Assembly: GCA_004764695.1 (NCBI GenBank)
Contig: SMSO01000007.1
Location: 2,363,270 to 2,427,269 of the forward strand
DNA: 64,000 nucleotides
Reading direction: 5' to 3'
From: Schizochytrium sp. TIO01
Lineage: Eukaryota > Protista > Bigyra: Labyrinthulomycetes
The position numbers and the translations under genes are program-made. The notes beneath the pieces were generated by a model. It ran no database searches, was not told the origin of the DNA, and was given only the letters and a program-made list of their open reading frames with translations. This document shows, piece by piece, positions 19,745 to 42,400 of this stretch (position 1 is the first letter of the stretch; the number at the start of each line of letters is the position of its first letter).

Positions 19745-21454
19745 AATTGAGTGCGAACGGTGGTGGGGGCACTCTTGCTGGAGACCACACAGGTTAGGCA
19801 TGCCAGTGGATCAACCAATCAATGTACTTTGTCACAATCATCTTATCATCTTCAGGCTAGCCAAGGGAAGCTCTCCGCATTCTAGTAAGTAGTTGAGTAG
19901 CAGATCCATGTCGAGCTTCTAATTCACTGGAAACTTGAGCGTTCTAGCTATAGCAGGTATCTCAGGCTGCATCAAAGTACCTAGCTACTAAGTGCTTATC
20001 TTTTGATGCATTCGACAGACATGGTGAAATTGGCAGCCAAGAACCCTGAGGACCAAGGCCGAGTTGGAATCTGCAGGACTGGAAGATTTGCAGTCCTGCC
20101 ATCGTCTTCTACCCATACCCTCCGGCAAGAGCAGTAGCACGAGCAGCAGCCTGGTCGAGCATGCCTAGGGTCCACAGCCCTTATCAGATGAGGATCTTTC
20201 TTCGACTAAGCTTCGTCGCATACCTTAACTACTTTGTTCCCCATACGCACATGATCATCTTCAAACACATTAACTATTTACTTTCTTCTTAAGAAAGTCT
20301 TTTGTTTTATGTCTATTAGGGTCTGGTTATTATGTTGGTAGGTATTGTTGCGACAAAAGAACAAAAACTCTAAAAACAGGGAATAAGAAAACTTTGAAGG
20401 GCAAGAAAAGAAAAAAACTATCATGAGGTCCAGAGAAGAGAAAAGGTACTAATCGCGCTAAATCGACCCCCCTTCGCACTCCACCTCAAAGCGAATCACT
20501 GCAAGTTTGCAAGGCAATACTTCTATTATACTTTGGAAGCTTCCATCGTCAACAATCGGCAGGAATTGTGGCCCGCTGCTGGCTAGTCATTTGGACCACG
20601 TACGTCCAGTATTCCTTTCCTTGATCGCCAAGCTCCTCTCGCTATTCCAACCCATGGAAGGAAGGATCTTGGTTCTCTGATGAAAGCTTAGGTATCGCCT
20701 TTCTTTTTACTTCAAAACTTTTCTTTTCAAGTTGCTTTATTTTTTAAAATAGTTAAAAACAACTTTAATAAAAGAACGATAAAAATAATATTTATATAGC
20801 CTGGATAGTATGTAGTTAAAAGAGGCAAACTTTCTTTAATTTATTGAAAAACACTTTTAAAACTTGTAGCTGCAGCCTCACGTGTTACCCTAGTGGTTCG
20901 ATTTTCAAAAGTGTTCTGTTAGAAAAACGTAACAAAAAAGTTCTGAAAGGAATAAGAACATCTAGGTGCTCGAAATACATAAAATTTTGAAGCAGCAAAT
21001 CGCAAACCACGAGGGCATTGGCGTGGCTGCCTACGCCCCCCTGCCTCATTACAGAGGCGGGTGGTAGGAGGCCTTGTAATAGCTACTACAGATTGAGCAG
21101 AGAGGAGAAGAAGGCATCGTCCATAGCAAACTAAAGGGTCTTTTGCTCCCTTGTTGTTATTTGCTTCTTAGGAGCAAGAGAAGTAAGTGCAAGCCAGCGG
21201 AGTAGAGGTTGTGCCCTTTCGCGTCACCAAACACTAGTTCTTTTGGCTGACAGATAAACTACGCGAAACTAATTGATAGTTTCAGGGTGAGGCACATTAT
21301 AGCTCATTGACGTGAGAAGCACGAAATAAAAGCGACATTGACGGTGATATCATCAAAACAGAATCACTTAGAAAGAAGCAGCTATAACTCGCACTTCTCA
21401 CTGATTGTAGAGCTTAGTTACTTGTTGGCTGGCGTAGAACTCGTACGCAAAACC

Positions 21455-23131
21455 ATGACCGAGGCCGAGTTCGAGACCGTTTGGGAATCAGATGAGCTGC
21501 ATGCACTGCGTGTAGCAGCACAGCGATACTCGCGAAAGACACACCCAGACAAGAACAAGAGATGGAAACTCATTGCGAAGGAAATTGGCAAGAGCAAACG
21601 AGAATGCTATAGGCGCTACCAGGAGCTGAAGGTAGAGCAAAGTGAATTACGTCGATGTCCATCTGACTCTAGCGTGCTCTCTAGTGTGAGAACGGTGTCC
21701 TCGGATAGTCTTCTCTCCAGTGGTGGAAACAGCGTCTCCAGTGGTGCAAGCGCCATGAATGCCAGCACAATAAGTAGTGCCAAAAGCTTCGGGAGCAGGG
21801 CAAGTTCGAGCATCAGAAAATTCAGAAAATCTAACAGCTCAAGATCTGTGGTGAAAACATCAAACTCCAGCAAGAGCTATCCTTTACCAGAAGCTACGCC
21901 TGACTTTTCATTCTGTGTTGAGGCGAAGTGCGTTCATGGAAATGCTATGAAGGAACATGCCGATCTTGCCATTTATGATCTTCATGAACCTGCAGAAGAC
22001 TCCGTCAGTGAATGCAAGCTCTCCAATGATAGCCTCGATACCTTTGTGGAGGCTTCCACCCTTACCTGCTCACCTCGTACAGTACGTTCCATCCGTACCG
22101 ATGAAGCTCGCGACATCTTATCTCTTCTTGTGGGGGGTGCTAAGCTACGTGTTGGCCTCGACACAGGTTGGCGTAAGCAGGGTTTCTTTTTTGGAGAAGG
22201 CGCAAAGCCACGCTATGGACTTGTCCAGCTAAAGGGTGGCCCTTGTGGCGCAATTGCAGTGGTTCAAGCATTTGTTCTTGTGGAATTGCTTTATGGAGTT
22301 AACATGCCTGCTGCCATCCGTTGGGACCGCCCTACCTCTGAGGAGCGTCGCCGAGCGCTCACAGAGGCTCTTACAACAATTATTTGGCAGGCTGGGGATC
22401 GTGTGGCTAACGTTTGCGTGGTAGATGACGGTGTTGCAGATAGTAGCTCAGGAACAGGGCAAATGATGGTTCACCAAGCACAAAGCCGCGAAGATGTTCG
22501 TGACATTGTTGACGGGCACATTGAATCCTTCATGCGCCCTCAAGGGCCCGGAGTACTTCTGCTTCTCTTTTCTGTCATCCTTACCAGGGAGGATATCAAA
22601 TCCGACATGGACCATGCTTTGCATCCAGGCGAGACTGCCCTCATTGGGCGTCACAACTACGCTGGTCAAGAGCTTGTGAACCTTTTGCTCTTTGGTCGAG
22701 CATGCTCAAATGTATTCGATGGGAAAAAGGATCTTGGTCAAGGCAAAGATAAAATGGTTCTGCAGGGTGTGGAGCGCCATTGCGAGGTCGGCTTTCTCAC
22801 GCTTTTTGAGCACTATGGCTATATGCAGGTTGGGTCGCTTCTCAAGGAGCCTCTTTTTCCTGTGTGGGTACTGTGCAGCGAATCTCATTACTCAGTTCTT
22901 TTCTCTGACGGTCCTGAATGTCTGAACTCAAGTGAACCATTTGATCTCTATTATTATGATCAACTTGGCAATCAAGAAGAACAGTATCGGTTGACCGTGA
23001 ATCCCGACCCTGACTGTCCAGTGGAGCATAGTACAGATGAGTCGCGGCTGGTCTCTCCCATTGATGACTGTATACGAACGAGATGGCCTGGTGCCACAGT
23101 TGATTGGAATGGATCGGATCCTCTTTTGTGA
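21455..23131 (+). CDS. MINDY4: MINDY-3/4 family deubiquitinase (DUF4205) with an N-terminal SANT/Myb-like domain (558 aa)
   Basis: LVQLKGGPCGAIAVVQA (catalytic Cys), PVWVLCSESHYSVLF (catalytic His), FDLYYYDQL, and C-terminal RTRWPGATVDWNGSDPLL. First ATG at 21455 (AACCATGA). Confidence 0.9.
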   Translation: MTEAEFETVWESDELHALRVAAQRYSRKTHPDKNKRWKLIAKEIGKSKRECYRRYQELKVEQSELRRCPSDSSVLSSVRTVSSDSLLSSGGNSVSSGASAMNASTISSAKSFGSRASSSIRKFRKSNSSRSVVKTSNSSKSYPLPEATPDFSFCVEAKCVHGNAMKEHADLAIYDLHEPAEDSVSECKLSNDSLDTFVEASTLTCSPRTVRSIRTDEARDILSLLVGGAKLRVGLDTGWRKQGFFFGEGAKPRYGLVQLKGGPCGAIAVVQAFVLVELLYGVNMPAAIRWDRPTSEERRRALTEALTTIIWQAGDRVANVCVVDDGVADSSSGTGQMMVHQAQSREDVRDIVDGHIESFMRPQGPGVLLLLFSVILTREDIKSDMDHALHPGETALIGRHNYAGQELVNLLLFGRACSNVFDGKKDLGQGKDKMVLQGVERHCEVGFLTLFEHYGYMQVGSLLKEPLFPVWVLCSESHYSVLFSDGPECLNSSEPFDLYYYDQLGNQEEQYRLTVNPDPDCPVEHSTDESRLVSPIDDCIRTRWPGATVDWNGSDPLL

Positions 23132-23799: not shown

Positions 23800-26700
23800 C
23801 TAGGTTCCATTTTTCTGCAGGCTGACGTTATAGCTAGAATGCCATCGCATGAAGCAAGACTGCTGCTCCTCTTGGTCGCGAAACACCTTATGCAGTGGAA
23901 CTTTGCACAAGGAGCACACTGATGTTGCCTGACCACCACAAACTACACATGTTTTCATTTTGGGACGAGCGACACCATTGGTTTCTGTGAAGCCAATTTT
24001 TTTGATATCATGTGGAAGCCCTCGGTTCCTTCTAATAGCACGAATTGCTGGCCGATTGAAAAAGCTACGACGAGCCTTTCCACGCTTTGGAGCTTTATTC
24101 ATAATCTCCTCTGCCTCGGAGAGAGCAATTTTCTGTAATTGTTGTTCAGAAAGCTTGTCAAGGTCGTCGTCGGGATCGATCGTAAAGGAAAGATTTTGTG
24201 ACCGCGTCTGGTCCTGCTCGTCCTGCTCGTGTTGACCCTGGTCATGTTCCTGGCCAGGAACTTGAAGTTGTTGTTGTTGCTGCTGCTGCTGCTGCTGCTG
24301 TTGTTGTGGTGGTGGTTGCTGTCGTTGCGCTTGTCCACGGGTTTGTATTGTTGTGTGAGATTGCGACTGAGCGTGGTGCTGATGATGATGACCAAAAGCA
24401 TGCTGATGAACAGAAGATCCAGAATATATAGCTCCAGAAGCATGTGTTCCCGTAGCAGCTCGAAGCTGCGCAACTACTAGATCAAGAGCAAATTGACGTC
24501 TTTGCGACGAGGTAGGCAAGGGTGACCCTGTATGCGAATTCGTATGCATGGAAAGAGCTTGTACAGTCACCACAAGAGCTTGCAACACAGATACAACCCT
24601 CAAATCCCCTTCAGTTGATGACATGGTTGCGCTCAGAGCATCTAAACTCTTGAGAACTTCCTCCGAGCTTTGCTCAGCACCTTCATAGCAACACTGCGCA
24701 AGACTTGCAAACGAGCTCACAGGCATAAGAGGTTGGCCACGATCCCAAAAGAGAATCTTGTCATTCAATGCCCTCCACAGACGAAAATTACGCAGTAAAG
24801 AGTTCGATGAAGACCTCAACTCAACAGGTACTGCTGGAGTGCTCCCAGGCTTGCTGTCAATCGCCCACTTACAAAGATCTGCAAACGGGTGAACAGCTCC
24901 AAGAAAGGCTTGTTTTGCATCCTTAGAAATATTCACAATGACTGCTCGAAAAACATCAATCTCGTCATACTGAATAAATAGAGCATAGTCTGTATCCAGA
25001 ACAGTCGCTTGGTGAAGCAACGTTGTACGACAATCTTCTGGGATATACGACCACCACGAGGTAGAACCAACATGATCAGCTATGAGCTCGTTCGGCGTCG
25101 CACTCCGCTGTTTGTCTGTACCAAGCCGGTTGCGAGTAATGCAAACAGGGGCAAGCTCACCTTCATCACTTGGAGCTTGAGGATGAGCCACAAGAGCTAC
25201 CAAATCCGGTGTTGAGCCCAAGTATGGGTAACTATGACTGACAAGGAGACCCGTCTGGAAGACTCCACGGCACCAAGGTTTACGTTTGAGTAGCTCTCGA
25301 GTGTGAGTAATTTCACTTCGGCGGTTATTCATATTCATTCCATGCAACCAGTCATTTACAAGAAGGCCAGCAGCTAAATGGACGTCCACGTTATTCCTTC
25401 CTTCTCTTATGGTATTCGTGACAAATTGTTGTGAATGTTTGTCGTGCAGGATGAGTTTACGGGATACGGTCTCGTTCACTAGGTACTGGCGTAAGACCTG
25501 CCAGTCTAGATACCCAGAAATAACAGTGATGGGAGCTACAGAGCGCCGCAAATCTCGTTCTATTGTTGTAGCCACAGTTTGACGAGAATAATTCGAATGA
25601 TCCGAGGCGGTCGCAAACAAATGCGCCGCAGCTTCCAACGGTCTAAGCTTTTGAAAACGAAGAGCTAAATGATCAGAGTGTCCAGAATCTATCATCTCAA
25701 CCCCTTGGTCTATGTACCACGCAGAGGGTTCCACTGAGTTTGCTACTTGATAGGCAGATAAGCAGATGGGTGCTGAGTCTTGCGTATCCCAAGAACGATA
25801 GTGACGCTGGCATCGATGTAGTTGAACGCCGCTATATTCAGTAGATACAGAGGGACTGGGGAGAACAGGAGTATGTTTAGAAAGTTTTGCAAGAGTAGAA
25901 ACGTGCCCAAAGATCCAAGACTGCCAAAGATCGCGGGTTAGAGATTCGCTGAAAATAAGTAGTGAGCCCATCTTTGGCTCAAAACTTTGCAGAAGTACAT
26001 GTCCTGCAAGAACTGCCTCTTCTTTTCCATATTCAGTTTGCGGCAACCCCTTTTCAAGAGATGAAGGAGGAGGAGGAGCAGATAGTCCGAGCTGGCTCTG
26101 GCTTGAACAAGGGTAAACACTCACTACAGCTTGTAGTGTTGCATCATATAAGCACATAAGGTTACCCTGTTTAGCCCTTAGCAAACCATACGAGCCAAAC
26201 TCCGTCGACGTAATCTTACGAATTATCTGAAAAGCCTGCTTAGAAAATTGGTGCACGAGTGCCTCGCACTCACTAGCATTAGATGACCAGTACGGAAATT
26301 CGACTGCATTCAGTAACTCAATAATTCGTGCCTTAGAAGACAACAGTTGGCTATCATTGGTCAATTTGGCTAGCATATCAAAGCTGGTATCAATGGGAAA
26401 CCCGAGTAGTTTTATACCAAGATAAATATAAATGAATTGCATCATCTCGTTGCGTAAACACTGCCTTTTGCGGTCTTGTCGCAGCTTGTGGTTAACGAGG
26501 TCTTGTAGAACGCCTATTGAGCCTGCAATGAGAACTTCGAAGATACTTCCAGGCGTTCGAGAGCCAAAATCAAATTCGGGTTCATGCTGATGATGTTGGC
26601 TCAGGAGAAGACTAGGCTCTGGTATTGAACCAAGAATATTTGGGTGTTGACTACTGCTGAGGATCGACGCAAGGTTAATCCGAACGGCGTCAATGTGTTT

Positions 26701-27291
26701 TGCATTTCGATCACCAAGAACATGTAGTCTTAGACTGTCCTCTTCGTAGATGTCGAATATGTTTGGCCCCGGATCATTTACTGTAGTTCTTTCTTGAAGA
26801 ATCCAATGTTCCTCGATAGGGGTTGCTCGCTTCAAAAAATGGTCCACGTTACCAATAAAATTTGAGCCTAGAACACCAAGTTTTGACCCAGCACCCAAAG
26901 AGCGCATTTCAGAATAAGATACACTAGACCCATTGCCCATGTTTGAAGAAAGTCTTGAACTCGAGCTTGGAAATGTAGAGTGAGTCAGCCCTGACTGACT
27001 ATTCGCACCGGAACTGCTAATCTTACTCAGATTTCCAGTTGCATTTGCACTAGTGCGCCCATTTACATTGTTGGTAATCGCAGGCTCTACCGTAGAGCTG
27101 ATCGTGCCAGAATTTATATGGTTGACTCTTAAGTGAGCTTCCTGGTGTGCATTAATCGAGTTATTACCGAGCTTGTCTTCGTTTGCAGCATCTTCTGTCA
27201 AAGAGTCTGCGGCAAGAACGCCGAGGCTATCGATACTGGTCAAAGGCGGCACCGAAGGGTCATGGCGAGCTCGCTTTCGTGACTCGCTCAT
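23800..27291 (-). CDS. Transposon-derived protein: degenerate piggyBac-like core with an embedded YqaJ-like nuclease domain, polyQ and a piggyBac-type C-terminal Cys-rich zinc domain
   Basis: 3.5-kb intact ORF. GLLVSHSYPYLGSTPD is the YqaJ motif. CVVCGGQATSVCSLCKVPLH...CFMRWH is the piggyBac-type Cys-rich domain. EMMQFIYIYLG...SSKARIIELLNAVEF and KQGNLMCLYDAT resemble piggyBac blocks. First ATG at 27291. Confidence 0.7.
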   Translation of the reverse strand: MSESRKRARHDPSVPPLTSIDSLGVLAADSLTEDAANEDKLGNNSINAHQEAHLRVNHINSGTISSTVEPAITNNVNGRTSANATGNLSKISSSGANSQSGLTHSTFPSSSSRLSSNMGNGSSVSYSEMRSLGAGSKLGVLGSNFIGNVDHFLKRATPIEEHWILQERTTVNDPGPNIFDIYEEDSLRLHVLGDRNAKHIDAVRINLASILSSSQHPNILGSIPEPSLLLSQHHQHEPEFDFGSRTPGSIFEVLIAGSIGVLQDLVNHKLRQDRKRQCLRNEMMQFIYIYLGIKLLGFPIDTSFDMLAKLTNDSQLLSSKARIIELLNAVEFPYWSSNASECEALVHQFSKQAFQIIRKITSTEFGSYGLLRAKQGNLMCLYDATLQAVVSVYPCSSQSQLGLSAPPPPSSLEKGLPQTEYGKEEAVLAGHVLLQSFEPKMGSLLIFSESLTRDLWQSWIFGHVSTLAKLSKHTPVLPSPSVSTEYSGVQLHRCQRHYRSWDTQDSAPICLSAYQVANSVEPSAWYIDQGVEMIDSGHSDHLALRFQKLRPLEAAAHLFATASDHSNYSRQTVATTIERDLRRSVAPITVISGYLDWQVLRQYLVNETVSRKLILHDKHSQQFVTNTIREGRNNVDVHLAAGLLVNDWLHGMNMNNRRSEITHTRELLKRKPWCRGVFQTGLLVSHSYPYLGSTPDLVALVAHPQAPSDEGELAPVCITRNRLGTDKQRSATPNELIADHVGSTSWWSYIPEDCRTTLLHQATVLDTDYALFIQYDEIDVFRAVIVNISKDAKQAFLGAVHPFADLCKWAIDSKPGSTPAVPVELRSSSNSLLRNFRLWRALNDKILFWDRGQPLMPVSSFASLAQCCYEGAEQSSEEVLKSLDALSATMSSTEGDLRVVSVLQALVVTVQALSMHTNSHTGSPLPTSSQRRQFALDLVVAQLRAATGTHASGAIYSGSSVHQHAFGHHHQHHAQSQSHTTIQTRGQAQRQQPPPQQQQQQQQQQQQQLQVPGQEHDQGQHEQDEQDQTRSQNLSFTIDPDDDLDKLSEQQLQKIALSEAEEIMNKAPKRGKARRSFFNRPAIRAIRRNRGLPHDIKKIGFTETNGVARPKMKTCVVCGGQATSVCSLCKVPLHKVFRDQEEQQSCFMRWHSSYNVSLQKNGT

Positions 27292-28625
27292 GGGGAAACG
27301 GTACAACGCGAGTAGCTTAGACTCTTACTGTTCGCAGCGCCCTTGGACAGTTCTTTGGTCGAGGCACAAGTGGATGAACTTCAGACAGTTGATCAACTGG
27401 TCAGCAAAATATGAAAGTGAATTGAACGAGACTGAAAAGTAACCGGAGCGCGCAAGTGCAGGACTGGTACCTAGAGCCAGGAACTGCTACGACTTGATTG
27501 CACTTTGCTGTTGTATAATATTGCTGCTGACTTTCAACATGGCAAGACTCACTCTACTTAGAACTCATTTTCAACTTTGTATGCAAATGGCTCGACTGTC
27601 TTTTCTAATAAGTCTCCCAGCAACTTGCTACCTAGGTGGTACTAGTAGAGCCTATGCATTAGTTAGCCGAAAGTAGGGCAGCTGGCCCCTGTATTTGTGC
27701 TTGAAAATGGCGTTCCTGCTAAGACGCATGCTCGTTTCAATTTATTCAATCAACGTAGCTACATTTTCCAGGATAAGCGATTGATACTAGCTAGCTTCAC
27801 ATATGGATGAAGAGCAAAGCCTTGAACACATCACGCAATCGATGAGAATCCCAACAAGTTGCTAGTCCTTATTTCTTTGAAGTATCTCAGGCTGCCGTGC
27901 AACCAGAACTCAAGAGGGAAAATGTAGAAACTCGAATAGCAGAAGATTTATACAAATGAGATAGTTTCGAGAAGATTATGACCAAACTGCACAGAGTGTT
28001 TATTGCAAGAGGTTATGTAGTATTCAATAATTTTTGTGAAATCTAAAATTAATAGATTATGCGTTATTCTCCAGTTTCCACGTACATGCGAAATCTAGTT
28101 TTGCGAATTAGCAAACAGCAAGCTGCTGCTGTGATTTCATTTCGCACAAGTACCAAACATTCTATCGTTCTACTAAGTTTTGTTAACTTTCATTACTTTT
28201 CTTGTAGATTTGTAGGTTATGCATGAAGCTGCATTTTGACAAGAAACAAGAAGAAATAATAGATATAGCTAAGATTTAAACATTTAGAAAATGCGCGATT
28301 CATTCAGCCTCTTGCAAGCTTGAGGTATATCGAAATGCAAAATTTGTGCAAGAGCGTAATCCCAACTTCAACTACTTAATGAAATAGTACCTACTCCTAA
28401 CTGCTAACTACTTACTGTAGATACATCTATTTTTATGAACAAACTCTAAATGGGCACTGATGGGAGGAAGCGGATAGGGTTCATTGCGAAGCAACGCTTC
28501 GCACGGACTTACCATTTAAAGCCATTTCTGCAAGAATATAGGTGTTGCAACCCTTGTTGCTGTTGTTCTCTAAACGCGAGTGCGTGAGTGGCCCAAGGTT
28601 AAAAAAAAAAAGACTCACACTCATC

Positions 28626-31550
28626 ATGGCAACTTCTGGAGCATCTCCAAATATTAGACCTCCAGAACTTCGCGAAAGCGCTTATGAAGAAAGTCGGCGA
28701 GAGCGCGAAGGGTATCGCCGGCGATTCCAGGATGAAGACACCCCAGCAGAGTTTCGCTACAAGTTTCTTGACCAAAAATTGGCGGTTCGCATGCTGCTGA
28801 GGACTCGGAGGAGACGCATACTTGTGCTGGAGTGCGCTGCTTATACAATATTAGTGGGCTTTTACTGCATTTATCTCTTTGCGTTCATGTCGCTTCCAGA
28901 CTCGTACTTGTATAAACGTCTCTTTGCACAGACACTTGCGACTAAGCCGTTTAACTTTGAAAGAGTCTTTTACCGATACTCTCCCGGTGGTGGCGAAACT
29001 CCTTCGGAACAGTGCACCCTGCCGCTTAAAAGTGCGAGCGACGTCTTCACAAGTAGCACTGCACAGAACAATTCAATTCCTTGTCTCCAAGGAATTCAGT
29101 CGCTTACATTTGCAGAGATTCAAGATGTGGACCATACATATAGCTGGCTGCAGTTCGTTCTACTTCGATCACCCCTTTTTGTGGGTGGTGAAGACCGATC
29201 TCAAGTTTTTGTCACTATGACAGCTTCTTTAGAGGGCCAAAGCGAAGACGATAGTCGTACGACACTAATAATGCCTGACAACTCGTTTATTCCGGTAGGC
29301 GCGGTTCGCCTGCGACAACTTCGCGTAAAACGGGCCCCATGCTCCAATGATACAGTATTCGAAGGCCAGACTTGTAATTTACCATTCAGCGAAGCAAATT
29401 TGAACACATCCGATATAGTGGGTACCTCCTCAGGCCGACTGTATTCCTTCCAAAGTGCGGATGACTTGGCTAAGGCAAGCTTTTCAGCTTCAAACATTGC
29501 GAGCGAGGTCAACCTCGACTCTGGAAAGCTTAATGCGCCAGACACATATCAAGGCATTCTGGAGAATTACCCTGGCTCCGGGTACGTGATTGATATTGAG
29601 GGTGGAAATGGAACAATAGCAACCGAAACATTTGAACAACTGCAAATGGACCGCTGGATCGACGAAAGTACAGTTGCTTTATTTGTTTCGTTTACGGCTT
29701 ATGCTGTCAATTTAGATACTTACATACACCAAACATTTCTTGTAGAGCTGAGTTCATATGGCCTTACTGCTACAAGCATGGAGACACGCCCGTTCAAACT
29801 ACTAATTTCTCAAGATGGTGCATGGGCTTTGGAGATCTTATTGATGACTCTTTCAAGTGTGTTATTGGTTTTAATATTTTATTATCACTTTTGGCCTGCT
29901 TTGCAAACATCTCGATCGATCACAAGCTTACTTCTCGGGTGGGATATGTATGATGTTTTCAACTTATCTATGGTGATTGCGTCAGTAGCTGTACGAATGA
30001 CTCTACGAACATCTAGCACGGCACAGCTTGCAACAAAAGAGGCAACACTTGTCTCCCTGATGACAGAAAATCGTCGTGTTTACCCTGCAGTGTATGAGAG
30101 TTATTCACGAGTATTAGTTAAAGCGCAAATGCTGGCTGGGTGGTCTCTCGTCATTTGCTTTCTCAAGTACTTTAAGTACGTGGACATGAATAAGCGGTTC
30201 AGCATTGCACTTGCAAGTCTTGTGGAAAGTCGAACTCGGTTGGCTGGTTGGCTTGTATTTACTGTGATTGTAATTCTTGGCTTGACATTCTTTTGCATGT
30301 TTGCTTATGGATTTTATTCATTACGATTTGCAGAATTTTCTGAGTCTTTGACTAGTTTGCTTCTCTTTATGGTGCAAATTTTTGGGGAGGGATTTGACCA
30401 TCTTTCTGGAAGCGATGCTGCTACCTCATCAAGTTGGAGTTCCTTGAGCTTTGTTGCTTTACGCTATGGAACTACAGGGCTGCCGATGAGTCTTTCTGCG
30501 TTTGAGGTAGTGGACAAATCGTATTCAATTCCTCTTGCACAGAGCCTATTTTTTTCAATTTTACTTGTGGTTGTAGTGATCATTCTTGTGGCTAATATGT
30601 TTCAGGCCATTCTGATTTTAGGCTATCAAACAGTGGCTCACCAGGTTCAAGAAGATGAAAATCTGCGCAAGGAGCAGCGCGAGGTTCTTTTACGTAGTCA
30701 AAGAATGTTAAATCAGAGTTGGTTAAGACGCCAAGTCAAAGAACTAGGCCGCATGCTACGATTTCGAGAGCATGCTCGGATTATCAACCAATTACAATCA
30801 GCCCCTGAAGCCCGAGCACGTAATCTTCTGTCATACGCAGAGGTTCGACGTCTTGTAGGAGAAATCGTGACCACTGATTCCCAAAGAGCATCAGAAATAG
30901 CCTATGAGCTAATGTCCCTGTATCAGACTACACTGTCTAGGATTGATGATGCTGTAATTTTGTTCCAGGATCGTGCAATTGCCTTACGGGAGGGCCGTTT
31001 GCACGAGAAGTTAGATCCTTCCGAGCTCCCTGTGATAGACCCTTCCCAAGGCTTTGACGCTGCTCAAGCAGAGCTGTGGCGTAGGGATCTCCAGTCCGGT
31101 GAGCTCCTTCAATCAATGCTATTAGTACATAGTTTGCAACTAGAGGCCTCATCAAAGCATTTCAAGAAGGATTTGGATCAAATTCTGCAGGGTGAAAGAG
31201 ACCACCGGGAGCTGTGCATCAATTTAGAGACAGCAATGCACGAACTCCAATCGAAGGAAATTGCGAAAAAGGGTGATATTCGTACATCACAGGACCCATA
31301 TGAAGCTCGGCCTGGATCTATTGTGGAGGTTCGAATTGATGGTTTATTTGATGCTCATTTTGTCAGTCAAGGCGGACACCATACATACCTGGGTTGTTAC
31401 CCTACACGTAGTGCTGCACAAGGTGCCATTGAAGACATGGCGGTTCGAGCCACGATGGAAGATGCTCAAACTCTTCGACTTCGTAATGTAAGTCGCGAAT
31501 CTGGTGCTACTTCTCCTCCCGGTTCTATATCATATCATGATGGGGAATAG
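28626..31550 (+). CDS. Polycystin-2 (TRPP/PKD2)-like cation channel (974 aa)
   Basis: TOP-domain motifs GAVRLRQLRV, YPGSGYVIDI and LQMDRWIDESTVALFVSFTAY; six TM helices; FLKYFKY; S6 ILVANMFQAIL. First ATG at 28626. Confidence 0.9.
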   Translation: MATSGASPNIRPPELRESAYEESRREREGYRRRFQDEDTPAEFRYKFLDQKLAVRMLLRTRRRRILVLECAAYTILVGFYCIYLFAFMSLPDSYLYKRLFAQTLATKPFNFERVFYRYSPGGGETPSEQCTLPLKSASDVFTSSTAQNNSIPCLQGIQSLTFAEIQDVDHTYSWLQFVLLRSPLFVGGEDRSQVFVTMTASLEGQSEDDSRTTLIMPDNSFIPVGAVRLRQLRVKRAPCSNDTVFEGQTCNLPFSEANLNTSDIVGTSSGRLYSFQSADDLAKASFSASNIASEVNLDSGKLNAPDTYQGILENYPGSGYVIDIEGGNGTIATETFEQLQMDRWIDESTVALFVSFTAYAVNLDTYIHQTFLVELSSYGLTATSMETRPFKLLISQDGAWALEILLMTLSSVLLVLIFYYHFWPALQTSRSITSLLLGWDMYDVFNLSMVIASVAVRMTLRTSSTAQLATKEATLVSLMTENRRVYPAVYESYSRVLVKAQMLAGWSLVICFLKYFKYVDMNKRFSIALASLVESRTRLAGWLVFTVIVILGLTFFCMFAYGFYSLRFAEFSESLTSLLLFMVQIFGEGFDHLSGSDAATSSSWSSLSFVALRYGTTGLPMSLSAFEVVDKSYSIPLAQSLFFSILLVVVVIILVANMFQAILILGYQTVAHQVQEDENLRKEQREVLLRSQRMLNQSWLRRQVKELGRMLRFREHARIINQLQSAPEARARNLLSYAEVRRLVGEIVTTDSQRASEIAYELMSLYQTTLSRIDDAVILFQDRAIALREGRLHEKLDPSELPVIDPSQGFDAAQAELWRRDLQSGELLQSMLLVHSLQLEASSKHFKKDLDQILQGERDHRELCINLETAMHELQSKEIAKKGDIRTSQDPYEARPGSIVEVRIDGLFDAHFVSQGGHHTYLGCYPTRSAAQGAIEDMAVRATMEDAQTLRLRNVSRESGATSPPGSISYHDGE

Positions 31551-32112: not shown

Positions 32113-34554
32113 TTACTTCTTCTGAGCGGCATCACGACGCTCAATGTTGCGCTCAAACGCCTTACGGAGAGTGTCAGTATCAACCATGAATGCGTAGGAG
32201 TCATTCTCCGGGTTAGCAGCCATCCAGCCGATCTCCTTGGCAAGACCCATGGTAGCATGTCCGCCAACAAAGTGCTTGTCGTACTTCAGGGTGTCAAGCA
32301 CCTGGTCGATTGTCATGGTGTCAGGGACGAAGCAGGGGAGACCAGTGGCACCAACAATCTCGTAGTGCTCGTCGACAACGTTCTCCTTACAAATGCCGAG
32401 GAGGTAGGCGACCTCAGCAGAGACACACATACCGATGGCAACGGCCTCACCATGGAGCAGAGGCTCATTGCCATGATGCCAGGAAAGGTGCTCGATGGCA
32501 TGGGCCGGGGCATGGCCATACTGAGGCACCATCTCGTTGTAGGCGTGCTCAGCGTTATAAGCTGGTCCGAGAGTAGAGACCTTCTTCTCCATGCATTCAA
32601 TAATAAGGCGAAGAAGATAGTCTCCATCGTGGAAGACCTCGGAGCGGTTCTCACCAGCGTCACGAAGAGGGTCGACGATCAACTTTGTGAAGTCAGTGCA
32701 CTGGCACACAGCGTGCTTAAGGGCCTCAGCGATACCATTGAGAATGTGGCGGTCACTGAGAGACTTGAGACAGTCAGGGTCCATGACGAGGTAATCGGCA
32801 GGGTAGTAGCAACCCAAGAGGTTCTTACCAAAGTCCTGGACGTTGAAGGCCTTCTTGAAATCACACGAGGCATCGCACATACCCATGGTGGTGGTCGGGA
32901 TGGTCACGAGCTTGATACCACGATACAAAGTGCCTGCAATCGTACCTGTGATGTTGTCTACAGTACCACCTCCGAGTGAGATGAGACAGGTGTGCTTGGA
33001 CACTCCGGTGGCGAGAATCTGGTCAACGATGCGGTGAAACTGCTCCTTATTTTTGTAAGGTTCAGTAGAGGGCTCACCAGAGTCATCCATGGCTGCAGAA
33101 GGAATGACAATCTTGTCAATGGTGAGCCCAGCGTCGCGGAAGCCCTGAAGGACCTCATCTGCGTAGAGACCGTCTACGATCTCATCAGTGACGAGATAGT
33201 TGTGAGCCTCATGGGAAACCTCAGGGACAATGGTCTTGCCGATGGTGGCAAGGTTCTTGAGGATGCCACGCTGGATGACGATCTCTGTCTCGAGGTATTT
33301 TCCGGGTCTCTCGAATCTGTTACGGAAGCATCCGTTCTCGTCGACTTCACAAGGCGTACGGAATGCCTGCGTTCCGGGATGTCCTCCACGCACACAGTAT
33401 TCGGAGTCCTTGTCGAGATCGAACCAAGGAGGGCTCACGAAGCGAAATCCGCGGTCAAGAGCGTTGATACGCTCCATCTGAGGGTTCGTAAGACGCCAGT
33501 CGAGTACATCGCGGTTGGCGTGAATTCGCTCTGGGTTAAGGCTCTTGGGGATTACAGTGGTGCCACGCTGGATACCCCACCGGAGGAGTACCTGGCCAGG
33601 CGCCTTGCCAACCTCTTCGGCGATCTCAAGAATGGTTTCGTCCTCGAGAAGCGAAGGGTCACCCTTGTTGCGGTAACCGACCTTGCCAAGAGGCGAATAG
33701 GCGATGACGTTCACACCCTCGGTCTGGCAAAGCTCAAGGAGGCTGGGTTGCTGGAGGTAGGGATGCATTTCAACCTCGAGAGCGAGAGGACGGATGTCGC
33801 ACTTCTCGAGAAGAAGCTGCAAGGTGCGAGCACCCATGTTGGAGACACCAAGGTAGCGCACGAGTCCGAGACCGACGAGGCGTTCCATGGCCTCATAAGT
33901 CTCCATGATCTGGTCGATGTCAGTTCCGTCATGAACAACGTCGTACTCAAACTCGCCTCCGAAATCTGGTGAGACCAGCTTGCCTCCCTTAGCCATGCGG
34001 TTAGGCCAATGCATCATGTAACAGTCGAGGTATTCGACTTGGAGGTCCTTCAAAGTGCGACGGCAGGCATCCTCCACGTCTTCCGGCGCGGCATCCCAGC
34101 ACCAAAGCTTGCTACATACAAAAAGGTCATCGCGCTCGACAAGACCTTCATCGAGGGACTCGGAGATGGCCTCGCCAACCTCCTTCTCGTTTCCATACAG
34201 TGCGGCGCAGTCAATCATGCGGTAGCCCTCTCCAATGGCGACCTTGACGGCCTCCTTTACACGGTCACCATCCTTGAACTCGTTGAAGGTACCGAATCCG
34301 AGGAGAGGAACAGCCACTGTAGGTTGTGAGACAGTGGAGCTGGTTCGGGAGCGGGTCTCGATAAGGTCATCGAGGGTGCTGAGAGCGGCAGAGCTATAGT
34401 TGGAGCTCATTTTGGTCTCGCTCTCAGAGCTGCGGAGAGAATCAGTGGTGCGAATGGCATCATCCTTGGAGGTGTTGTCTACAACCTTGGGGGTCAGGAT
34501 AGTGTCTTCCTGCTGCTGCTGGGTCTGCTGCTCGATCTGATTGCTGATGGCCAT
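32113..34554 (-). CDS. Fusion of an aldo-keto reductase and a 2-deoxy-scyllo-inosose synthase-like sugar phosphate cyclase (813 aa); putative quercitol synthase
   Basis: AKR (about 34317-33440): GFGT, IDCAALYGNE, SKLW, MHWP, GVSN, AYSPLG, IPKS. Cyclase (about 33290-32113): GGGTVDNITG, LYRGIKLVTIPTT, DASCDFKKAFN, GKNLLGCYYP, AEALKH, QYGHAPAHAIE, LLHGEAVAIGM, DKH. Confidence 0.9.
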   Translation of the reverse strand: MAISNQIEQQTQQQQEDTILTPKVVDNTSKDDAIRTTDSLRSSESETKMSSNYSSAALSTLDDLIETRSRTSSTVSQPTVAVPLLGFGTFNEFKDGDRVKEAVKVAIGEGYRMIDCAALYGNEKEVGEAISESLDEGLVERDDLFVCSKLWCWDAAPEDVEDACRRTLKDLQVEYLDCYMMHWPNRMAKGGKLVSPDFGGEFEYDVVHDGTDIDQIMETYEAMERLVGLGLVRYLGVSNMGARTLQLLLEKCDIRPLALEVEMHPYLQQPSLLELCQTEGVNVIAYSPLGKVGYRNKGDPSLLEDETILEIAEEVGKAPGQVLLRWGIQRGTTVIPKSLNPERIHANRDVLDWRLTNPQMERINALDRGFRFVSPPWFDLDKDSEYCVRGGHPGTQAFRTPCEVDENGCFRNRFERPGKYLETEIVIQRGILKNLATIGKTIVPEVSHEAHNYLVTDEIVDGLYADEVLQGFRDAGLTIDKIVIPSAAMDDSGEPSTEPYKNKEQFHRIVDQILATGVSKHTCLISLGGGTVDNITGTIAGTLYRGIKLVTIPTTTMGMCDASCDFKKAFNVQDFGKNLLGCYYPADYLVMDPDCLKSLSDRHILNGIAEALKHAVCQCTDFTKLIVDPLRDAGENRSEVFHDGDYLLRLIIECMEKKVSTLGPAYNAEHAYNEMVPQYGHAPAHAIEHLSWHHGNEPLLHGEAVAIGMCVSAEVAYLLGICKENVVDEHYEIVGATGLPCFVPDTMTIDQVLDTLKYDKHFVGGHATMGLAKEIGWMAANPENDSYAFMVDTDTLRKAFERNIERRDAAQKK

Positions 34555-36691: not shown

Positions 36692-38400
36692 GGCCGCTCG
36701 CTTTCCTTCGGAAGATTATCAGCAGCCAAAAATGCATTCTTTTCTGAGAAGAAATCGGATGAATACATCAAATTTGATGGAGTTTTCTGAGCAATCTAGT
36801 ATCAGGCAGGGACCAGCCCCCGAAGGAGGACCAAGAACTTGATGTTCAAAAATCCAATAAACAGAAGTCAAGATCGTTCCCCCCACTTCTTCGTCCGCCT
36901 AGCAGCCTCGCATGTTTGTCTGGCACTCCTTGTTCTTCTCTTCTTCAGCCAGGCCTCGGTCCTCGTGATTCCCAAGGCCCAGCCCCCAAAGTAAACCGTC
37001 ATCACCACTGTGCTCACCTGAAACAAGAGTGATGCAGCGTACTTTTCCACTCCATACTACGACACCTTGGGAGACAGCGCTCGGTCTACCACGGTACACA
37101 CCGGGTGGAAGGTTAATTAAGGGACTTGAAAGGAGAGACCCCGCGCACTCTTCTTCTTTCTTTCCTTGGTCTTTCTCCTGTCCAAAGCTTCCTCCAAGTC
37201 CAAACTCACACCTGCCCCATCATACTTATTTATTTGGGCTGGTAAATAGATAGATAAATAAACTAATAAATAAACTGATTAATAGATGGATACAGCATAC
37301 CTCGGTTGATCATCATCATCATCTTCTTCTTCTTCTTCTTCTTCTACTATTTGGAAGGCATTTGCGAGGCCAGAGATCATAAGCAAACATGCTGCACGTG
37401 GGATCTAGTGGCTGGCCTGGCAGTGTAGAGCGACGCGCCAAGAGCTCACCAGCAAGCCACCGCCTTCTTAGTGTGGCAGTGCGTGTCGTCCTATCTTCTG
37501 TCGAGTCTCCGCTTCTTTAACGGAGATCCTTCCTTGCACGGACCAGGCCTCTGCATGTCTCTAAGAAGGTAAGTAAAGTGTCTAGCTAGTGAGAGGCACT
37601 TAAATCCTGTAAATCTGTAAACCAAAAAGTCACTCTCAGGCCAAGTTTATTCTTGAGAAATAAAGTATATCGCAAAACAGCTCGCTCCGCAAAAGCAACC
37701 CCAGCTCAATCTTTCATGATGAGCTACTAAGTACAGTGTCTCCTCGGTTAGTACGAGGAGTCGAAGATGAAGTTGAAGATGAAGTTGAAGTTGAAGTTTG
37801 AAGACAAAAATGAAAATGAAAATAATGTTCAATTTAATCTATATTTGCACTTTTTTAAAATTAAATTTTTACTTTTTATTTAATTATTAATAATAATAAT
37901 AATAGTAATAAAAGGATCATCATATGATTATCACCCCAAGATCCCAAAGCCTCCTCTGCCGAGTACTTCGATGGCGACAGACAGCAGACACAAAGCCCGC
38001 GTCCCTCTGCACGACCTGGCTTCTAGAGACACATTGGGTGAGTCATAGAACGTCCATGGCTTCGATGGTTCGCGCGAGAATTCCCCGCGGCACAACCACT
38101 TTTCATGAATCACTTACACAAGGAACTCTAGCTAGAGAAGCATTTGAACGCCTGCCTTGCAAGCAAGCAAGGATCACTACATTTAGTTGTGATCTGGAGA
38201 CTTCTCGAGGGTATAGGGAGGAGGAGGCCACGAAGTCAAAGGCAAGTTCCGTGTCTCGAGAAGTAAATAGTCAGCTAGCCAGCTGGCCATCTATCCATGC
38301 ATGCATGCATCCATTCACGTAGTAGTCAAACTATGTGCTTGCTCCAAGGCGGCTTCGGCTTCTCAAGGAGGGTCGTCGTGAGGTGCAAACGCCAGCCTGA

Positions 38401-38860
38401 CATACATACACACAAACATACATACAAACATACACATACATACACACATACAAACACATACATACATACATACATACATACATACATACATACATACACT
38501 CAGGAAACGCCTGGCTCTGGTAGCGTCGCGGCGAAGAACTCGCAGAGGCGGCTCCTACGAACCACTCGCTTGGCAGGACAGGCAGCCAAGAGGAGGCCGA
38601 CAGACAAGGAGGAGTCACGCTCGAGGGCGATGAATGAAGACCTCGGGCGGCAGCTGTCCGGTGTATCTCAAGCTAGCTATGGAATGGAATGGAATGGAGT
38701 GGAGTGGAGTGGAGTGGAGTGGAGTGGAGGGGGGTTCCTGCGACGCCAGACCTTCCTTGGAGTTCTTGAGAGCGGGGATGCACGCACGCACGCACGCCAA
38801 CCAGTCAGTCAGTCAGTCAGTCAGTCAGTCAGTCAGTCAGTCAGCCAGCCAGCCAGCCAG
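38401..38860. repeat. Microsatellite cluster: (CATA)n 38401-38498, (GGAAT/GGAGT)n 38680-38728, (GCAC)n, (CAGT/CAGC)n 38801-38860
   Basis: Seen directly. Confidence 0.93.
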
Positions 38861-39091
38861 CGTCCAGACTCCGGAGCCCGGCGGGTTTCTCGCCAAGAAC
38901 TCTTGAGCTAGACGGCGAGGCCTGAGGACTTGGCCTTGCCCAGCCAGAGATAAATCATCGCGCAGCATCGAGAGAGGCCTCCAAGCGCAAGACAAGACCG
39001 GGACGAAGGCCGTCGAGATCGCTCCGCACCGCAGGATGGCTTGCGTGCCGACTGGCTAGAGAGAGCTCCAGAGTGGAGACGAATTAGTAGT

Positions 39092-39150
<59 letters not shown>
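39092..39150. repeat. (CAG)n microsatellite, non-coding
   Basis: Seen directly; no credible ORF around it. Confidence 0.95.
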
Positions 39151-39367
39151 TACTTGGATTTGAACCTTGGGACTCGGCGGCGATCTTGTGGGAGTTCGTG
39201 AGCGGGTTTTTCGATCAACGCACAGCGTCAGAATCGAAAGGAGTGCAGTGGAAGAGAAGCGAGTGAAGTGGAACAGCTCGCGTGCGGCGAAGAAGCCGTG
39301 GTTGTCTGCCTACTTGGATACTTGGATGCACCGCGATGCCAAACTAAGACAGCAGAAGAGCAGAAGA

Positions 39368-39369
39368 GC

Positions 39370-39413
<44 letters not shown>
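39368..39413. repeat. (CAGA)n microsatellite; another lies at about 40453-40480
   Basis: Seen directly. Confidence 0.93.
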
Positions 39414-39414
<1 letters not shown>

Positions 39415-42400
39415 TCTTGAAAGATCAGAATAGCGACAAGCACTTCAACGCCACTCAAGCCCGAAGTTCTACTACGAGGCCCAAGGGCGATGGCATTGCC
39501 TGAGGTTTCATAGCATTCCAACCTACAACATTCGTCCCAGGTTCTGAAAGCAAGTTGAAGGCTACAAATTGAAGATGTCCCACTACTAGTGGAGAAGAAG
39601 AACTGAAGTTGAAAACATTTTTAAAAATAAATCTAATAAAATTTAAATTTTTAATTTTTTTTTAAACTTAAAATTCAAAAATTCAAAAGCAAGCCTCTCA
39701 GTCTTGGAGTTGGTACTACTGCTTGTAAGGAACAAAAGGACTTGCGCTGTGCTTATTCGTGTAGTTTCTGGCGTTCGATTTCTATAATTCTCAAGCGATT
39801 GGCATTGCCTCTTTTCCTCGCGCCCTCTTGTCTGACTACGTAGCAGCCGGCGGATTAGTGCATCCACGGCAGGCTGGCTCGAGGCAGATTCGCTCCTTCG
39901 AGCGTAGCTGTGAACGATTCTGCCTTCACACCGTGGCTACCGAAGCACCTAGCTACTTATAGAAAGACCAGCCCCGAGCTCTGTTCTCCTTCCTCGCGGT
40001 AGTACCTCTCAGTAACCACTAAGTGGGCACCAATCAACAAATCATGGTACCTTTTCATGACTAAACTACACTAAACTACACTAAACTAAACAAACATCTC
40101 ATGAAATCAATCCTTGTGCAAATAGATAATAGGTGTAGCACCTAGCTAGCTACTAGCTAGCTGCTACTCTACTACTTGTAACAATGGTTTCCCCGGTGAC
40201 GCTGAGAGCGTTCTGCCCTCAGCTTCTTGACGAAAGGGAGGCCTCAAGGAGACCTGAAGGAGGCCTATCGACCCATAATGGAGAGGAAGCTTGGCAACTG
40301 CCGAGTTGTTGCGGCCGCCGCGCTATTCTCGTTGGTTTTCAGAATAGGCGTCGAGTTGTCTCCGTCTTGCGAAGATCGTTGACAGGGATCTCCGCCATCG
40401 TTTTGGGGCGAAACAGTGGAGTCATGGTTGGAAGGAGACACGGCAATCAGCAGCAGACAGACAGACAGACAGACAGACAGCCTGGCCAGAAGGAGTACTA
40501 CACTGGCAGCAGGCGCATGGACTTCTGGAGCTGGACTAAGCCGGGCTCTGTCTGTTGATGGGATCATCGAAGGAGACTTATCTGCACCGACCTCGAGATG
40601 CCGGAACGCCAGTTCCTCACGTCCATGAGCGGCAGGCGGCTGCTCGAGGGGCGTTGACGAGGCCAAAGCTGAAAGAAAGGGCCCGAGGCTGGCTGGCGGC
40701 TGGCTGGCTGGAGTATCTCTCTAGCTAGAGCCAGGAAGGGCACAGCAATATTCCAGAGACAGAAACTAAGCGGAACTTACCTCTTTGGCACTTGCTCTCC
40801 CTGCATTAACGTGTGGGACAGCACTGAGGGGAGGCGACTACTACCTAATACCGAGCATCTACCTACCTACTACCTACGTGCTGTTTCCCGCTATTACCAT
40901 ACCACGACTCTCACTCACTATTCGGAAGTACAATCAGTCAATCAATCAATCGATCAATCAATCAATTCTCGCGTTCGGTAAAAAGGCGCGAAAGCTAAAG
41001 CGTAGTACCTAGCTGCCTAGGCGCCCCTAGGCCTAGCTAGCAATGGGTAGGGTTTGTGTTACTTATTCACGCGTAGGTTATTAGTAGTAGTAGTGATGAG
41101 AGACACGCGTCTGAGAGCCTCTCCACTCGCAAGTTGCAAGTTCGCAGGTTCTGCCTACTAGTATGCTATTAAATTATCCAAAAACTAAACTAATGAAAAA
41201 AAAAAATTAAAATTAAAAAAGCACTTTCAATAGTTATTTTCAATTGTAAACATCATTCAAGGAGTAGAGTTTTCTCGACCAATACTATCTTCCTGAGAGA
41301 GGAGGAGAGTCCTCAACTTGAACTCGCAACAGTTCAAGGAACTCATAGCTAGCTAGCTAGCTAGCTAGCTAACTAACTCAGAGAGGGAGAGATTGTTTGC
41401 TTCAAGTTCAACTTAACACTTCAAAGGTCGCTTTGGTTTAGAGCAAACGGGTCGCATGCTGGCTCGGCCTGCACTCTCTTTAGGCAGAGGCAATGAGTTC
41501 AAATGTTCTAGCTTCAATTTGGGTAAAACCTCAAGCAAAACTATCGCCCATTGCTCGGCCTGCCTTATACAGTTGCGCGGGGCTTTCCCGGTCTCCGACT
41601 TCCATGCCTCGGAAAACCCCCAAACTCAAACTGGGTCAAGTTGTCGCTCACTTATTGCAGCTGTGCACACTTGTCTTACGATTCTTCGCGATATGCCTTG
41701 AGTTTTGGAAATCCTTTTCGGCCCAGTTGATCGAAGCAAACAAAAGATTGATCGTGATCAGTAGAAGAACTAGACAGACCCAGGAACTTCTTCCCATGCC
41801 CTCTCACTATTCGAAGGCAACTCCTTCAAATCTCCAAGCTGGCGTTGTTAAAACCTCACGCCAAAACATGACTTTGGCTAGTCGTTTTAGAATTGGGGAG
41901 TTGTCGATTAGTCGCATTCGATTCACTGCTGCTTTGAATGAAGTCCATACAAAACTTTGAGAACCTGCGGCCCTCTCATGATAGAGTGACGTACTATCCA
42001 CAATCTTCAACGCAGACTAAAGGCGATGCGTCGACGTTTGACCGTTCTGAGCCGCGAGGCGGTAACACTCTCGGCAGATCTGTCTGCAGCTATCCGCTTA
42101 GAGCAAGCTCCTCGGCACTCGAGTTTCATTCCCTGCAATTACATGTCCGCCCATAATGACACTAGTGCGGGTGAGGAAGCATCGAGGAAAACTTGTTGTT
42201 GTTCCATATGCACCTACTTTGATCTTTACTTCTCCGCCTTCCTACCCCCATACTTTCCCTGCCTTTCCTCGGTAATGTCTGTAGATTGTTCTAATAACTT
42301 CTGTCGCCCGAGATTGTTCCTATTAGCCTCATTTGATGGTGCATCAGCCTCTGCTAATGATTTTTCTCACTTCTTTCTTTCAAGTCAGAAAAAATAAACT

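What the first reader, a model, noticed from the sequence alone, without database searches (positions are those of the whole stretch)
32440..32975. Altered cyclase pocket and stereochemistry point to mannose-6-phosphate, a new cyclase specificity
Seen: DOIS-type motifs are changed at substrate-proximal positions: GGGTVDN (DOIS GGGxxGN), DFKKAFN (xKQAVN) and QYGH (EYGH, whose Glu is implicated in BtrC catalysis). The catalytic Lys and metal ligands are kept. Inference: glucose-6-P gives DOI, whose reduction yields only scyllo- or (-)-vibo-quercitol. The 1D-1,3,4/2,5 pattern of (-)-proto-quercitol is what D-mannose-6-P would give, with hexose C2-C4 retained and both new carbinols trans to their neighbours. 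A galacto configuration would give the (+) enantiomer. I know of no described mannose-6-P cyclase.
Basis: inference. Interest (0 to 1): 0.8.

Follow-up and report, generated by a model that had tools for sequence, protein, structure and literature searches.

The report
Candidate quercitol synthase in marine protists
This gene fuses a sugar-phosphate ring-closing enzyme to a reductase and likely makes the salt-protecting sugar alcohol (-)-proto-quercitol of thraustochytrids, possibly from mannose-6-phosphate; a mannose-6-phosphate cyclase is already known, but this family, found in many marine algae and bacteria, would have to close the ring with the opposite handedness.

Summary
The three motifs are real. 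They lie in an intronless 813-aa ORF (32113-34554, minus strand) from a thraustochytrid: an aldo-keto reductase fused to a dehydroquinate-synthase-fold cyclase with intact catalytic and metal residues. The novelty claim fails: EboD/DEIS is a described mannose-6-phosphate (M6P) cyclase. The motifs do not diagnose M6P. Q at the BtrC-E243 position is in 119 of 119 homologues and DFK in 109, across diatoms, Nannochloropsis, haptophytes, pelagophytes, a choanoflagellate and bacteria. Only D533, K568 and a few others are thraustochytrid-private. The protein is not EboD (136 bits versus cut-off 333; separate clade). The stereochemical bookkeeping holds: 1D-proto-quercitol needs a manno (or altro) skeleton with an alpha-like new carbinol, which neither DOI nor EboD's product has. 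So what could be new is the product stereochemistry and an uncharacterised family, coupled to a reductase twice (AKR fusion in eukaryotes, adjacent SDR in 9 of 10 bacterial loci). Genera with canonical members include reported 1,4/2,5-cyclohexanetetrol producers, and the D-tetrol is formally 3-deoxy-(-)-proto-quercitol. Substrate is untested: M6P to (-)-proto-quercitol about 45%.

The parts
32113..34554 (-). Single-exon ORF, 813 aa: low-complexity N-terminal tail + aldo-keto reductase + sugar-phosphate cyclase
   Evidence: full-length 814-aa match in a named transcriptome entry (P0268); no intron-type joint in 4 runs laid; strongest codon bias of 13 window ORFs measured (ENC 41.6 vs 53.6-60.8)
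34312..34554 (-). Ser/Thr/Gln-rich N-terminal extension (aa 1-81), not conserved with the paralogue
33430..34311 (-). Aldo-keto reductase domain (aa 82-375); catalytic tetrad D115, Y120, K149, H182 and IPKS motif intact; closest solved relatives are AKR1A aldehyde reductases
   Evidence: PF00248 E 6.9e-51; 2alr E 1.3e-76; positions; tetrad roles recalled
32116..33345 (-). DHQS-fold sugar-phosphate cyclase domain (aa 404-813), QYGH family
   Evidence: PF01761 + PF24621; model pLDDT 95.5; Z 46.7 to DHQS 1nr5, 41.7 to BtrC 2gru, 41.2 to ValA
32953..32973 (-). GGGTVDN NAD-binding loop/helix; family consensus GGGVVNN; T531 and D533 thraustochytrid-private
32842..32862 (-). DFKKAFN; K567 = BtrC K141 / DHQS K152; DF family-wide, K568 (for Q) private
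32713..32727 (-). EALKH: metal ligand E610 and K613
32512..32583 (-). K658 ... AEHAYNEMVPQYGH loop: E674 at the DHQS R264 / BtrC G239 position, Q678 at BtrC E243 / DHQS N268, metal ligand H681; S660 and H670/A671 differ from family P and SD
32443..32454 (-). HGEA: third metal ligand H701
32272..32280 (-). DKH: K760, equivalent of the DHQS phosphate-binding lysine (role recalled)

Best explanation
The ORF encodes a DHQS-fold sugar-phosphate cyclase fused to an aldo-keto reductase, and it likely acts as a two-step quercitol synthase that would turn D-mannose-6-phosphate into (-)-proto-quercitol, the thraustochytrid osmolyte. Inferred steps: the cyclase (NAD+, divalent metal) oxidises C4, eliminates phosphate, re-reduces C4 and closes C6 onto C1 with the new OH alpha-like (trans to the manno C2-OH), giving 2-deoxy-3,4-di-epi-scyllo-inosose; the AKR domain (NADPH) then reduces the C5 ketone trans to C4-OH. 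Shown: domain architecture, fold, intact catalytic residues, family membership, repeated coupling to a reductase. Inferred: substrate, product, osmolyte role. Substrate choice is more likely a family-wide trait (QYGH, DFK, E674) than a result of the thraustochytrid-private residues.
For: Intact cyclase and AKR catalytic sets. AKR fusion in 40 of 119 listed homologues. An SDR is fused or adjacent in 9 of 10 bacterial loci scanned, followed by a kinase in 8 and a second nucleotidyltransferase in 7, so the cyclase product behaves like a ketone that is reduced to a free cyclitol. The clade is sister to EYGH DOIS-like proteins (SH-aLRT 97-99, quick tree) and keeps DOIS-type N534 and, in the family, KQA: a hexose-6-P cyclase lineage. 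E674 replaces the DHQS carboxylate-binding Arg (role recalled). The 90% cluster holds two Hondaea fermentalgiana fragments and two paralogues from a named transcriptome. (-)-proto-Quercitol is a principal compatible solute of thraustochytrids (title of Jakobsen 2007, seen in reference lists). Strong codon bias fits high flux. Formal stereochemistry: zero inversions from alpha-manno, one from DEI, two remote ones from DOI. EboD proves the fold can cyclise M6P. Amide at 678 resembles DHQS N268, whose product has the alpha-like OH (recalled).
Against: No biochemical, genetic or salt-induction data link the gene to the compound (searches found none). No residue is shared with the known M6P cyclase at the discriminating sites, and EboD is on a separate branch. 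The nearest characterised lineage uses glucose-6-P. No mannose isomerase or mutase was seen among the 93 of 142 neighbour ORFs scanned. The residue at 678 does not predict the aldol face across known enzymes (N, D, E occur with either outcome; recalled). Whether this window's species makes (-)-proto-quercitol was not shown. No genome is held, so competing routes from myo-inositol could not be checked. Many family members lack the AKR fusion.
Confidence: 0.45

Rival explanations
1. It is a divergent DOI synthase: G6P to 2-deoxy-scyllo-inosose, reduced by the AKR to scyllo- or (-)-vibo-quercitol. (-)-proto-Quercitol is made by further epimerases or by a separate route from myo-inositol.
For: Sister to EYGH DOIS-like proteins. 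BtrC is the best non-DHQS PDB hit (E 5.5e-29). DOI is readily reduced to scyllo- and (-)-vibo-quercitol by yeast reductases (PMC7348060). Bacteria make quercitols from myo-inositol (PMC9363598).
Against: E243 is Q and G239 is E throughout the core family. DOI needs two inversions remote from the ketone to reach the 1D-proto form; the easy one-inversion route gives the (+) enantiomer.
Confidence: 0.2
2. It is an M6P cyclase with EboD-like outcome (DEI), evolved independently, and the C1 carbinol is inverted later or the product is epi-/talo-quercitol.
For: The only proven M6P cyclisation gives DEI, and DEI is one inversion from the 1D-proto skeleton.
Against: No EboD-like residues or ebo genes. 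An extra epimerase would be needed and none is fused or seen next to the gene.
Confidence: 0.08
3. The substrate is another sugar phosphate: an altro-configured one (D-altrose-6-P/L-galactose-6-P giving the same 1D pentol, or sedoheptulose-7-P giving a C7 cyclitol that the AKR reduces).
For: The altro skeleton is the second formal solution for 1D-proto. SH7P is altro-configured and is cyclised by three members of the fold (PMC12904256). L-galactose is a thraustochytrid wall sugar (recalled).
Against: Lower similarity to ValA and DDGS (E 9.5e-24, 1.4e-14). The clade sits with hexose cyclases. Altrose-6-P and L-galactose-6-P are not usual metabolites (own knowledge).
Confidence: 0.12
4. It is a dehydroquinate synthase of the shikimate pathway, as database labels say ('3-dehydroquinate synthase', 'Pentafunctional AROM polypeptide').
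For: Top sequence and fold hits are DHQS; source labels.
Against: TIGR01357 188.8 bits versus cut-off 305. DHQS fingerprints GD, GGKT, R264 and N268 are replaced. Outside the DHQS group in the tree. Partners are carbonyl reductases and cytidylyltransferase-like genes, not shikimate enzymes.
Confidence: 0.03

Closest known systems
[quoted passage not shown] 2024, seen through PMC12904256 and bioRxiv 10.64898/2026.05.21.724671)
   Same: DHQS-fold cyclase; M6P substrate if the best explanation holds; also present in eustigmatophyte algae.
   Different: Separate clade, different pocket motifs (GGGAVID, GVKN, DFGH in L054), lives in the ebo operon. Its product, read from its name, keeps the DOI-type aldol carbinol and would reduce to epi- or talo-quercitol, not proto.
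2-deoxy-scyllo-inosose synthase BtrC (PDB 2D2X/2GRU)
   Same: Fold (Z 41.7), K141, metal triad, N at 534, KQA in the family, nearest lineage in the tree; C6 inosose then reduced.
   Different: E243 to Q, G239 to E, G107 to N/D, SIK to DFK; fused to AKR; no aminoglycoside context.
3-dehydroquinate synthase (AroB/AROM)
   Same: Best fold match (Z 46.7), amide at position 678, all phosphate- and metal-binding residues.
   Different: Below the equivalog cut-off; carboxylate-binding Arg replaced by Glu; GD and GGKT replaced.
EEVS / EVS / DDGS (sedoheptulose-7-P cyclases)
   Same: Precedent for two enzymes making opposite aldol epimers from one substrate (EEVS vs EVS) and for extra chemistry by the cyclase itself (DDGS; dehydration recalled).
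   Different: C7 substrate, lower similarity, different partner genes.
Bacterial QYGH-family operons (L083, L084, L086, L089, L090, L091, L095, L101, L001)
   Same: Same cyclase motifs; coupled to a carbonyl reductase.
   Different: SDR instead of AKR; fused nucleotidyltransferase, kinase and CDP-alcohol phosphotransferase suggest a CDP-cyclitol for surface glycans. No characterisation found.

Membership tests
Sugar-phosphate cyclase (DHQS-like) superfamily | Two-domain DHQS fold | tested here: met
   Pfam PF01761+PF24621; Z 39-47 to DHQS, BtrC, ValA, DDGS versus 28.6 or less to alcohol dehydrogenases
Sugar-phosphate cyclase (DHQS-like) superfamily | Glu/His/His metal triad, GGG loop, catalytic and phosphate-binding Asp/Lys/Asn/His/Arg | tested here: met
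   E610, H681, H701, D561, K567, K577, N578, K613, K658, H685, K760, R545; roles recalled
Sugar-phosphate cyclase (DHQS-like) superfamily | NAD+/metal-dependent phosphate elimination and carbocyclisation | not testable with these tools
   needs assay
DOI synthase (BtrC) | Glu243 (EYGH) and Gly239 | tested here: not met
   Q678 and E674
DOI synthase (BtrC) | Falls within the EYGH clade | tested here: inconclusive
   QYGH clade is sister to, not inside, EYGH DOIS-like sequences; quick tree only, BtrC itself not included, no clade test run
DOI synthase (BtrC) | G6P to DOI | not testable with these tools
   needs assay
EboD / DEIS | Sequence family of EboD | tested here: not met
   NF004852: 136 bits vs cut-off 333; L054 protein beside EboE scores 567 (equating NF004852 with EboD is my inference from this locus); separate long branch
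EboD / DEIS | ebo operon context | tested here: not met
   window neighbours are MINDY deubiquitinase, polycystin and others; bacterial relatives sit in SDR/kinase/NTP-transferase operons
EboD / DEIS | M6P to DEI | not testable with these tools
   needs assay
3-dehydroquinate synthase | AroB equivalog score; GD, GGKT, R264, N268 | tested here: not met
   188.8 vs 305 bits; DN, DFKK, E674, Q678
EEVS / EVS / DDGS | 14-residue fingerprint of Kean et al. 2014 | not tested
   paper not held; only lower overall similarity seen
Aldo-keto reductase superfamily | Asp-Tyr-Lys-His tetrad and IPKS cofactor motif | tested here: met
   D115, Y120, K149, H182, IPKS 335

The most novel reading that the evidence does not exclude
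The QYGH family is a second, independently evolved mannose-6-phosphate cyclase that closes the ring with the alpha-like carbinol, giving an inosose (2-deoxy-3,4-di-epi-scyllo-inosose) that no enzyme I found described makes. It is the missing entry step for a whole class of marine osmolytes: (-)-proto-quercitol in thraustochytrids and D-1,4/2,5-cyclohexanetetrol (formally its 3-deoxy derivative) in diatoms, haptophytes and Porphyridium. The thraustochytrid-private pocket changes (D533, K568, S660, H670/A671) would mark loss of a dehydration step, and bacteria use the same cyclitol, CDP-activated, to decorate surface glycans.
Probability: 0.22. Interest if true: 0.78.

Novelty: new variant of a known kind. 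Interest (0 to 1): 0.56.

Why it matters
No gene for (-)-proto-quercitol or algal cyclohexanetetrol synthesis turned up in my searches, although these are major compatible solutes of industrial DHA producers and of diatoms and haptophytes. A single bifunctional gene makes the question testable in one expression experiment, could explain salt tolerance and a carbon sink in thraustochytrid fermentation, and would offer a one-enzyme route to a chiral carba-alpha-mannose-like building block. It also flags a widespread family labelled as dehydroquinate synthase or AROM in databases. The headline claim (first M6P cyclase) is already taken by EboD.

Tried and rejected
Own genome: none held, so other cyclases, MIPS, PMI and copy number were not checked. 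Primary papers on proto-quercitol (PMC2074927), EboD (PMC11567786) and ValA (PMC4095911) were not held; the search for BtrC residue roles gave nothing usable in the 20 of 41 papers listed, so those roles are recalled. The genome-contig scan covered 2 of 64 parts and returned mostly ordinary DHQS; it says nothing about absence. The family motif gave 0 matches in viral contigs (exact pattern only). No salt-induction data: none of the 20 of 48 papers listed held 'dehydroquinate synthase'; PMC12472049 passages and the one supplement file of PMC6923395 held nothing. No paper tied quercitol to Nannochloropsis. RNA runs are contigs only; X15 and X16 are guessed RNA and X17/X20 cover 9 and 3 of 30 bins at depth under 4, so they do not show expression level. 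The '+'-strand ORFs 32257-32979 and 33211-33972 have no Pfam hit and are taken as antisense shadows. The idea that the AKR is a mannose-6-P/aldose-6-P reductase found no support among the best 60 of 138 PDB hits, led by AKR1A/1B. The 100% conservation at 533/568/678 in the 180-sequence 'core' is circular (selected on those columns); the counts quoted come. The careful tree did not finish; the quick tree was used. The taxon id on the named transcriptome entries resolves to a fungus in NCBI and is probably a source typo; the thraustochytrid assignment rests on the Hondaea members. Earlier scan findings: three look-ups, nothing returned.

Full report
The locus. Pfam gives an aldo-keto reductase (aa 86-367) and the two DHQ-synthase domains (aa 496-761). 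The AKR keeps D115/Y120/K149/H182 and is closest to AKR1A aldehyde reductases. A model of aa 404-813 built on 70 sequences has pLDDT 95.5 and matches DHQS, BtrC, ValA and DDGS at Z 39-47. Neighbours are unrelated eukaryotic genes. The 90% cluster has 5 members: two near-full-length entries of one named transcriptome (one identical over both domains, one paralogue 92% identical in the cyclase) and two Hondaea fermentalgiana C-terminal fragments (88-90%). Hondaea is a thraustochytrid. Contigs of two runs also show a second diverged copy and no intron. The gene has the strongest codon bias of the 13 window ORFs measured (GC3s 0.63 vs 0.33-0.44; ENC 41.6 vs 53.6-60.8), which fits but does not prove high expression.

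The motifs. All three are there, and the BtrC alignment places K567 on K141 and Q678 on E243; metal and phosphate ligands are kept (numbering counted from the printed alignments, roles recalled). But the protein belongs to a large family. One search found 452 proteins and listed 120; among the 119 non-self ones Q678 is in 119, DFK in 109 and N533 in 110. Named members come from Nannochloropsis, Nitzschia, Entomoneis, Cylindrotheca, Chaetoceros, Prymnesium, Chrysotila, Pavlovales, pelagophytes, Porphyridium, Erythrolobus, a chlorarachniophyte, euglenids, amoebae, Salpingoeca and bacteria. What is private to the thraustochytrid pair is D533 and K568 (0 of 119), plus T531, T551 and S563 at columns 95% or more conserved, and S660 and H670/A671 (the latter also in both Hondaea fragments). 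Of 306 near-complete cyclase domains, 2 carry DN/DFKK. D533 and K568 are charge-complementary and may simply compensate each other (inference).

Relatives. A quick IQ-TREE tree of 75 rows (SH-aLRT only; careful search unfinished) puts the window protein with its paralogue, Nannochloropsis and P0024 (97) inside a eukaryotic clade (99), inside a 53-row QYGH clade (99), which is sister to a group holding EYGH DOIS-like proteins; DHQS and an EboD homologue fall on the other side (97), the latter on a long branch. The EboD homologue (L054, next to EboE and an EboF-like phosphodiesterase) scores 567 on NF004852 where the window protein scores 136 against a cut-off of 333. AKR fusions are 40 of the 119 listed homologues. 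A motif scan of metagenome contigs gave 35 loci. In the 10 bacterial QYGH loci scanned (93 of 142 ORFs, including two control loci, were sent to Pfam), 9 have an SDR fused or next downstream, 8 then a kinase, 7 a second nucleotidyltransferase and 5 a CDP-alcohol phosphotransferase; L002 has none of these. Two independent couplings to carbonyl reductases argue that the family's product is an inosose that is reduced to a free cyclitol. No mannose-pathway gene was seen there.

Literature. [quoted passage not shown] The primary paper was seen as a title only. So M6P specificity is not new. Jakobsen 2007 was seen as a title only: (-)-proto-quercitol is endogenously made and a principal compatible solute of Schizochytrium S8 and three related isolates. 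PMC7348060 (passages): DOI is reduced to scyllo- and (-)-vibo-quercitol. PMC9363598 (passages): (+)-proto-quercitol resembles beta-D-galactopyranose, (-)-vibo beta-D-glucopyranose, and Salmonella makes both from myo-inositol. PMC5334607 (passage and references) cites cyclohexanetetrol as an osmolyte of Nitzschia ovalis and Chaetoceros muelleri; PMC3721227 gave only the same reference; PMC7998644 (passages) reports putative D-1,4/2,5-cyclohexanetetrol in Isochrysis, which was not among the named hits. Its occurrence in Pavlova and Porphyridium is recalled. PMC4426668 (passages) gave background on fingerprints. Searches showed no paper assigning a gene to proto-quercitol or describing this family; the library lacks most subscription papers, and bioRxiv supplements were closed.

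Stereochemistry. Three additions. A D-altro skeleton gives the same 1D compound. DEI, read from its name as DOI epimerised only at hexose C2, reduces to epi- or talo-quercitol, so a proto-quercitol cyclase must differ from EboD in the face of the aldol step, as EEVS differs from EVS. And the 1D-1,4/2,5-tetrol has the same C1, C2, C4 and C5 configuration as (-)-proto-quercitol, while DOI would lead to the 1L tetrol. Three or four genera with canonical family members are reported or recalled tetrol producers; this is a genus-level coincidence without negative controls.

Verdict. A real and probably active cyclase-reductase of an uncharacterised family. A quercitol-type synthase acting on a hexose-6-phosphate is likely (about 0.75). 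M6P directly to (-)-proto-quercitol is the best single mechanism (0.45), resting on product stereochemistry and host chemistry, not on the motifs. It works like DOIS/EboD plus a reductase but is a member of neither. Novelty: new variant of a known kind. Interest 0.56, for making an open biosynthetic question testable with one gene.

Noticed in passing
L084:3551-10811, L086:3336-10485, L089:4249-11488, L090, L091, L101, L083: Conserved bacterial operon: glycosyltransferase, CDP-alcohol phosphotransferase, nucleotidyltransferase-cyclase fusion, SDR, APH-type kinase, second nucleotidyltransferase, methyltransferase, inside surface-polysaccharide loci. It looks like a pathway that makes a CDP-quercitol for glycan decoration; I found no description of it.
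   Followed up: partly
P0363, P0364, P0403; P0056, P0062, P0067: Porphyridium purpureum and Prymnesium parvum carry several paralogues of the canonical family, mostly without the AKR; two Porphyridium ones are labelled 2-deoxy-scyllo-inosose synthase by similarity.
   Followed up: partly
P0183, P0194, P0197, P0200, P0203, P0222; P0122; P0179: Other cyclase variants with unusual residues at the E243 position (V, Y, L, M, H) or a D/K pair like the thraustochytrid one: further uncharacterised specificities.
   Followed up: no
L048:7821-9008: DOIS-like (EYGH) cyclase in a planctomycete beside a sugar ABC transporter rather than aminoglycoside genes.
   Followed up: no
window 21338-23131 (+): MINDY-3/4 deubiquitinase domain with a weak N-terminal Myb-like hit.
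   Followed up: no
window 28542-31550 (+): Polycystin-type cation channel gene directly convergent with the cyclase gene; no evidence of a functional link.
   Followed up: no
window 55256-56965 (+): HAD-like hydrolase fused to an alpha/beta hydrolase.
   Followed up: no
window 23800-27306 (-): 1168-aa protein without Pfam hit, with a poly-Gln tract and a C-terminal Cys/His cluster.
   Followed up: no
window 38300-40600: Dense tetra- and pentanucleotide microsatellites that create spurious ORFs.
   Followed up: no
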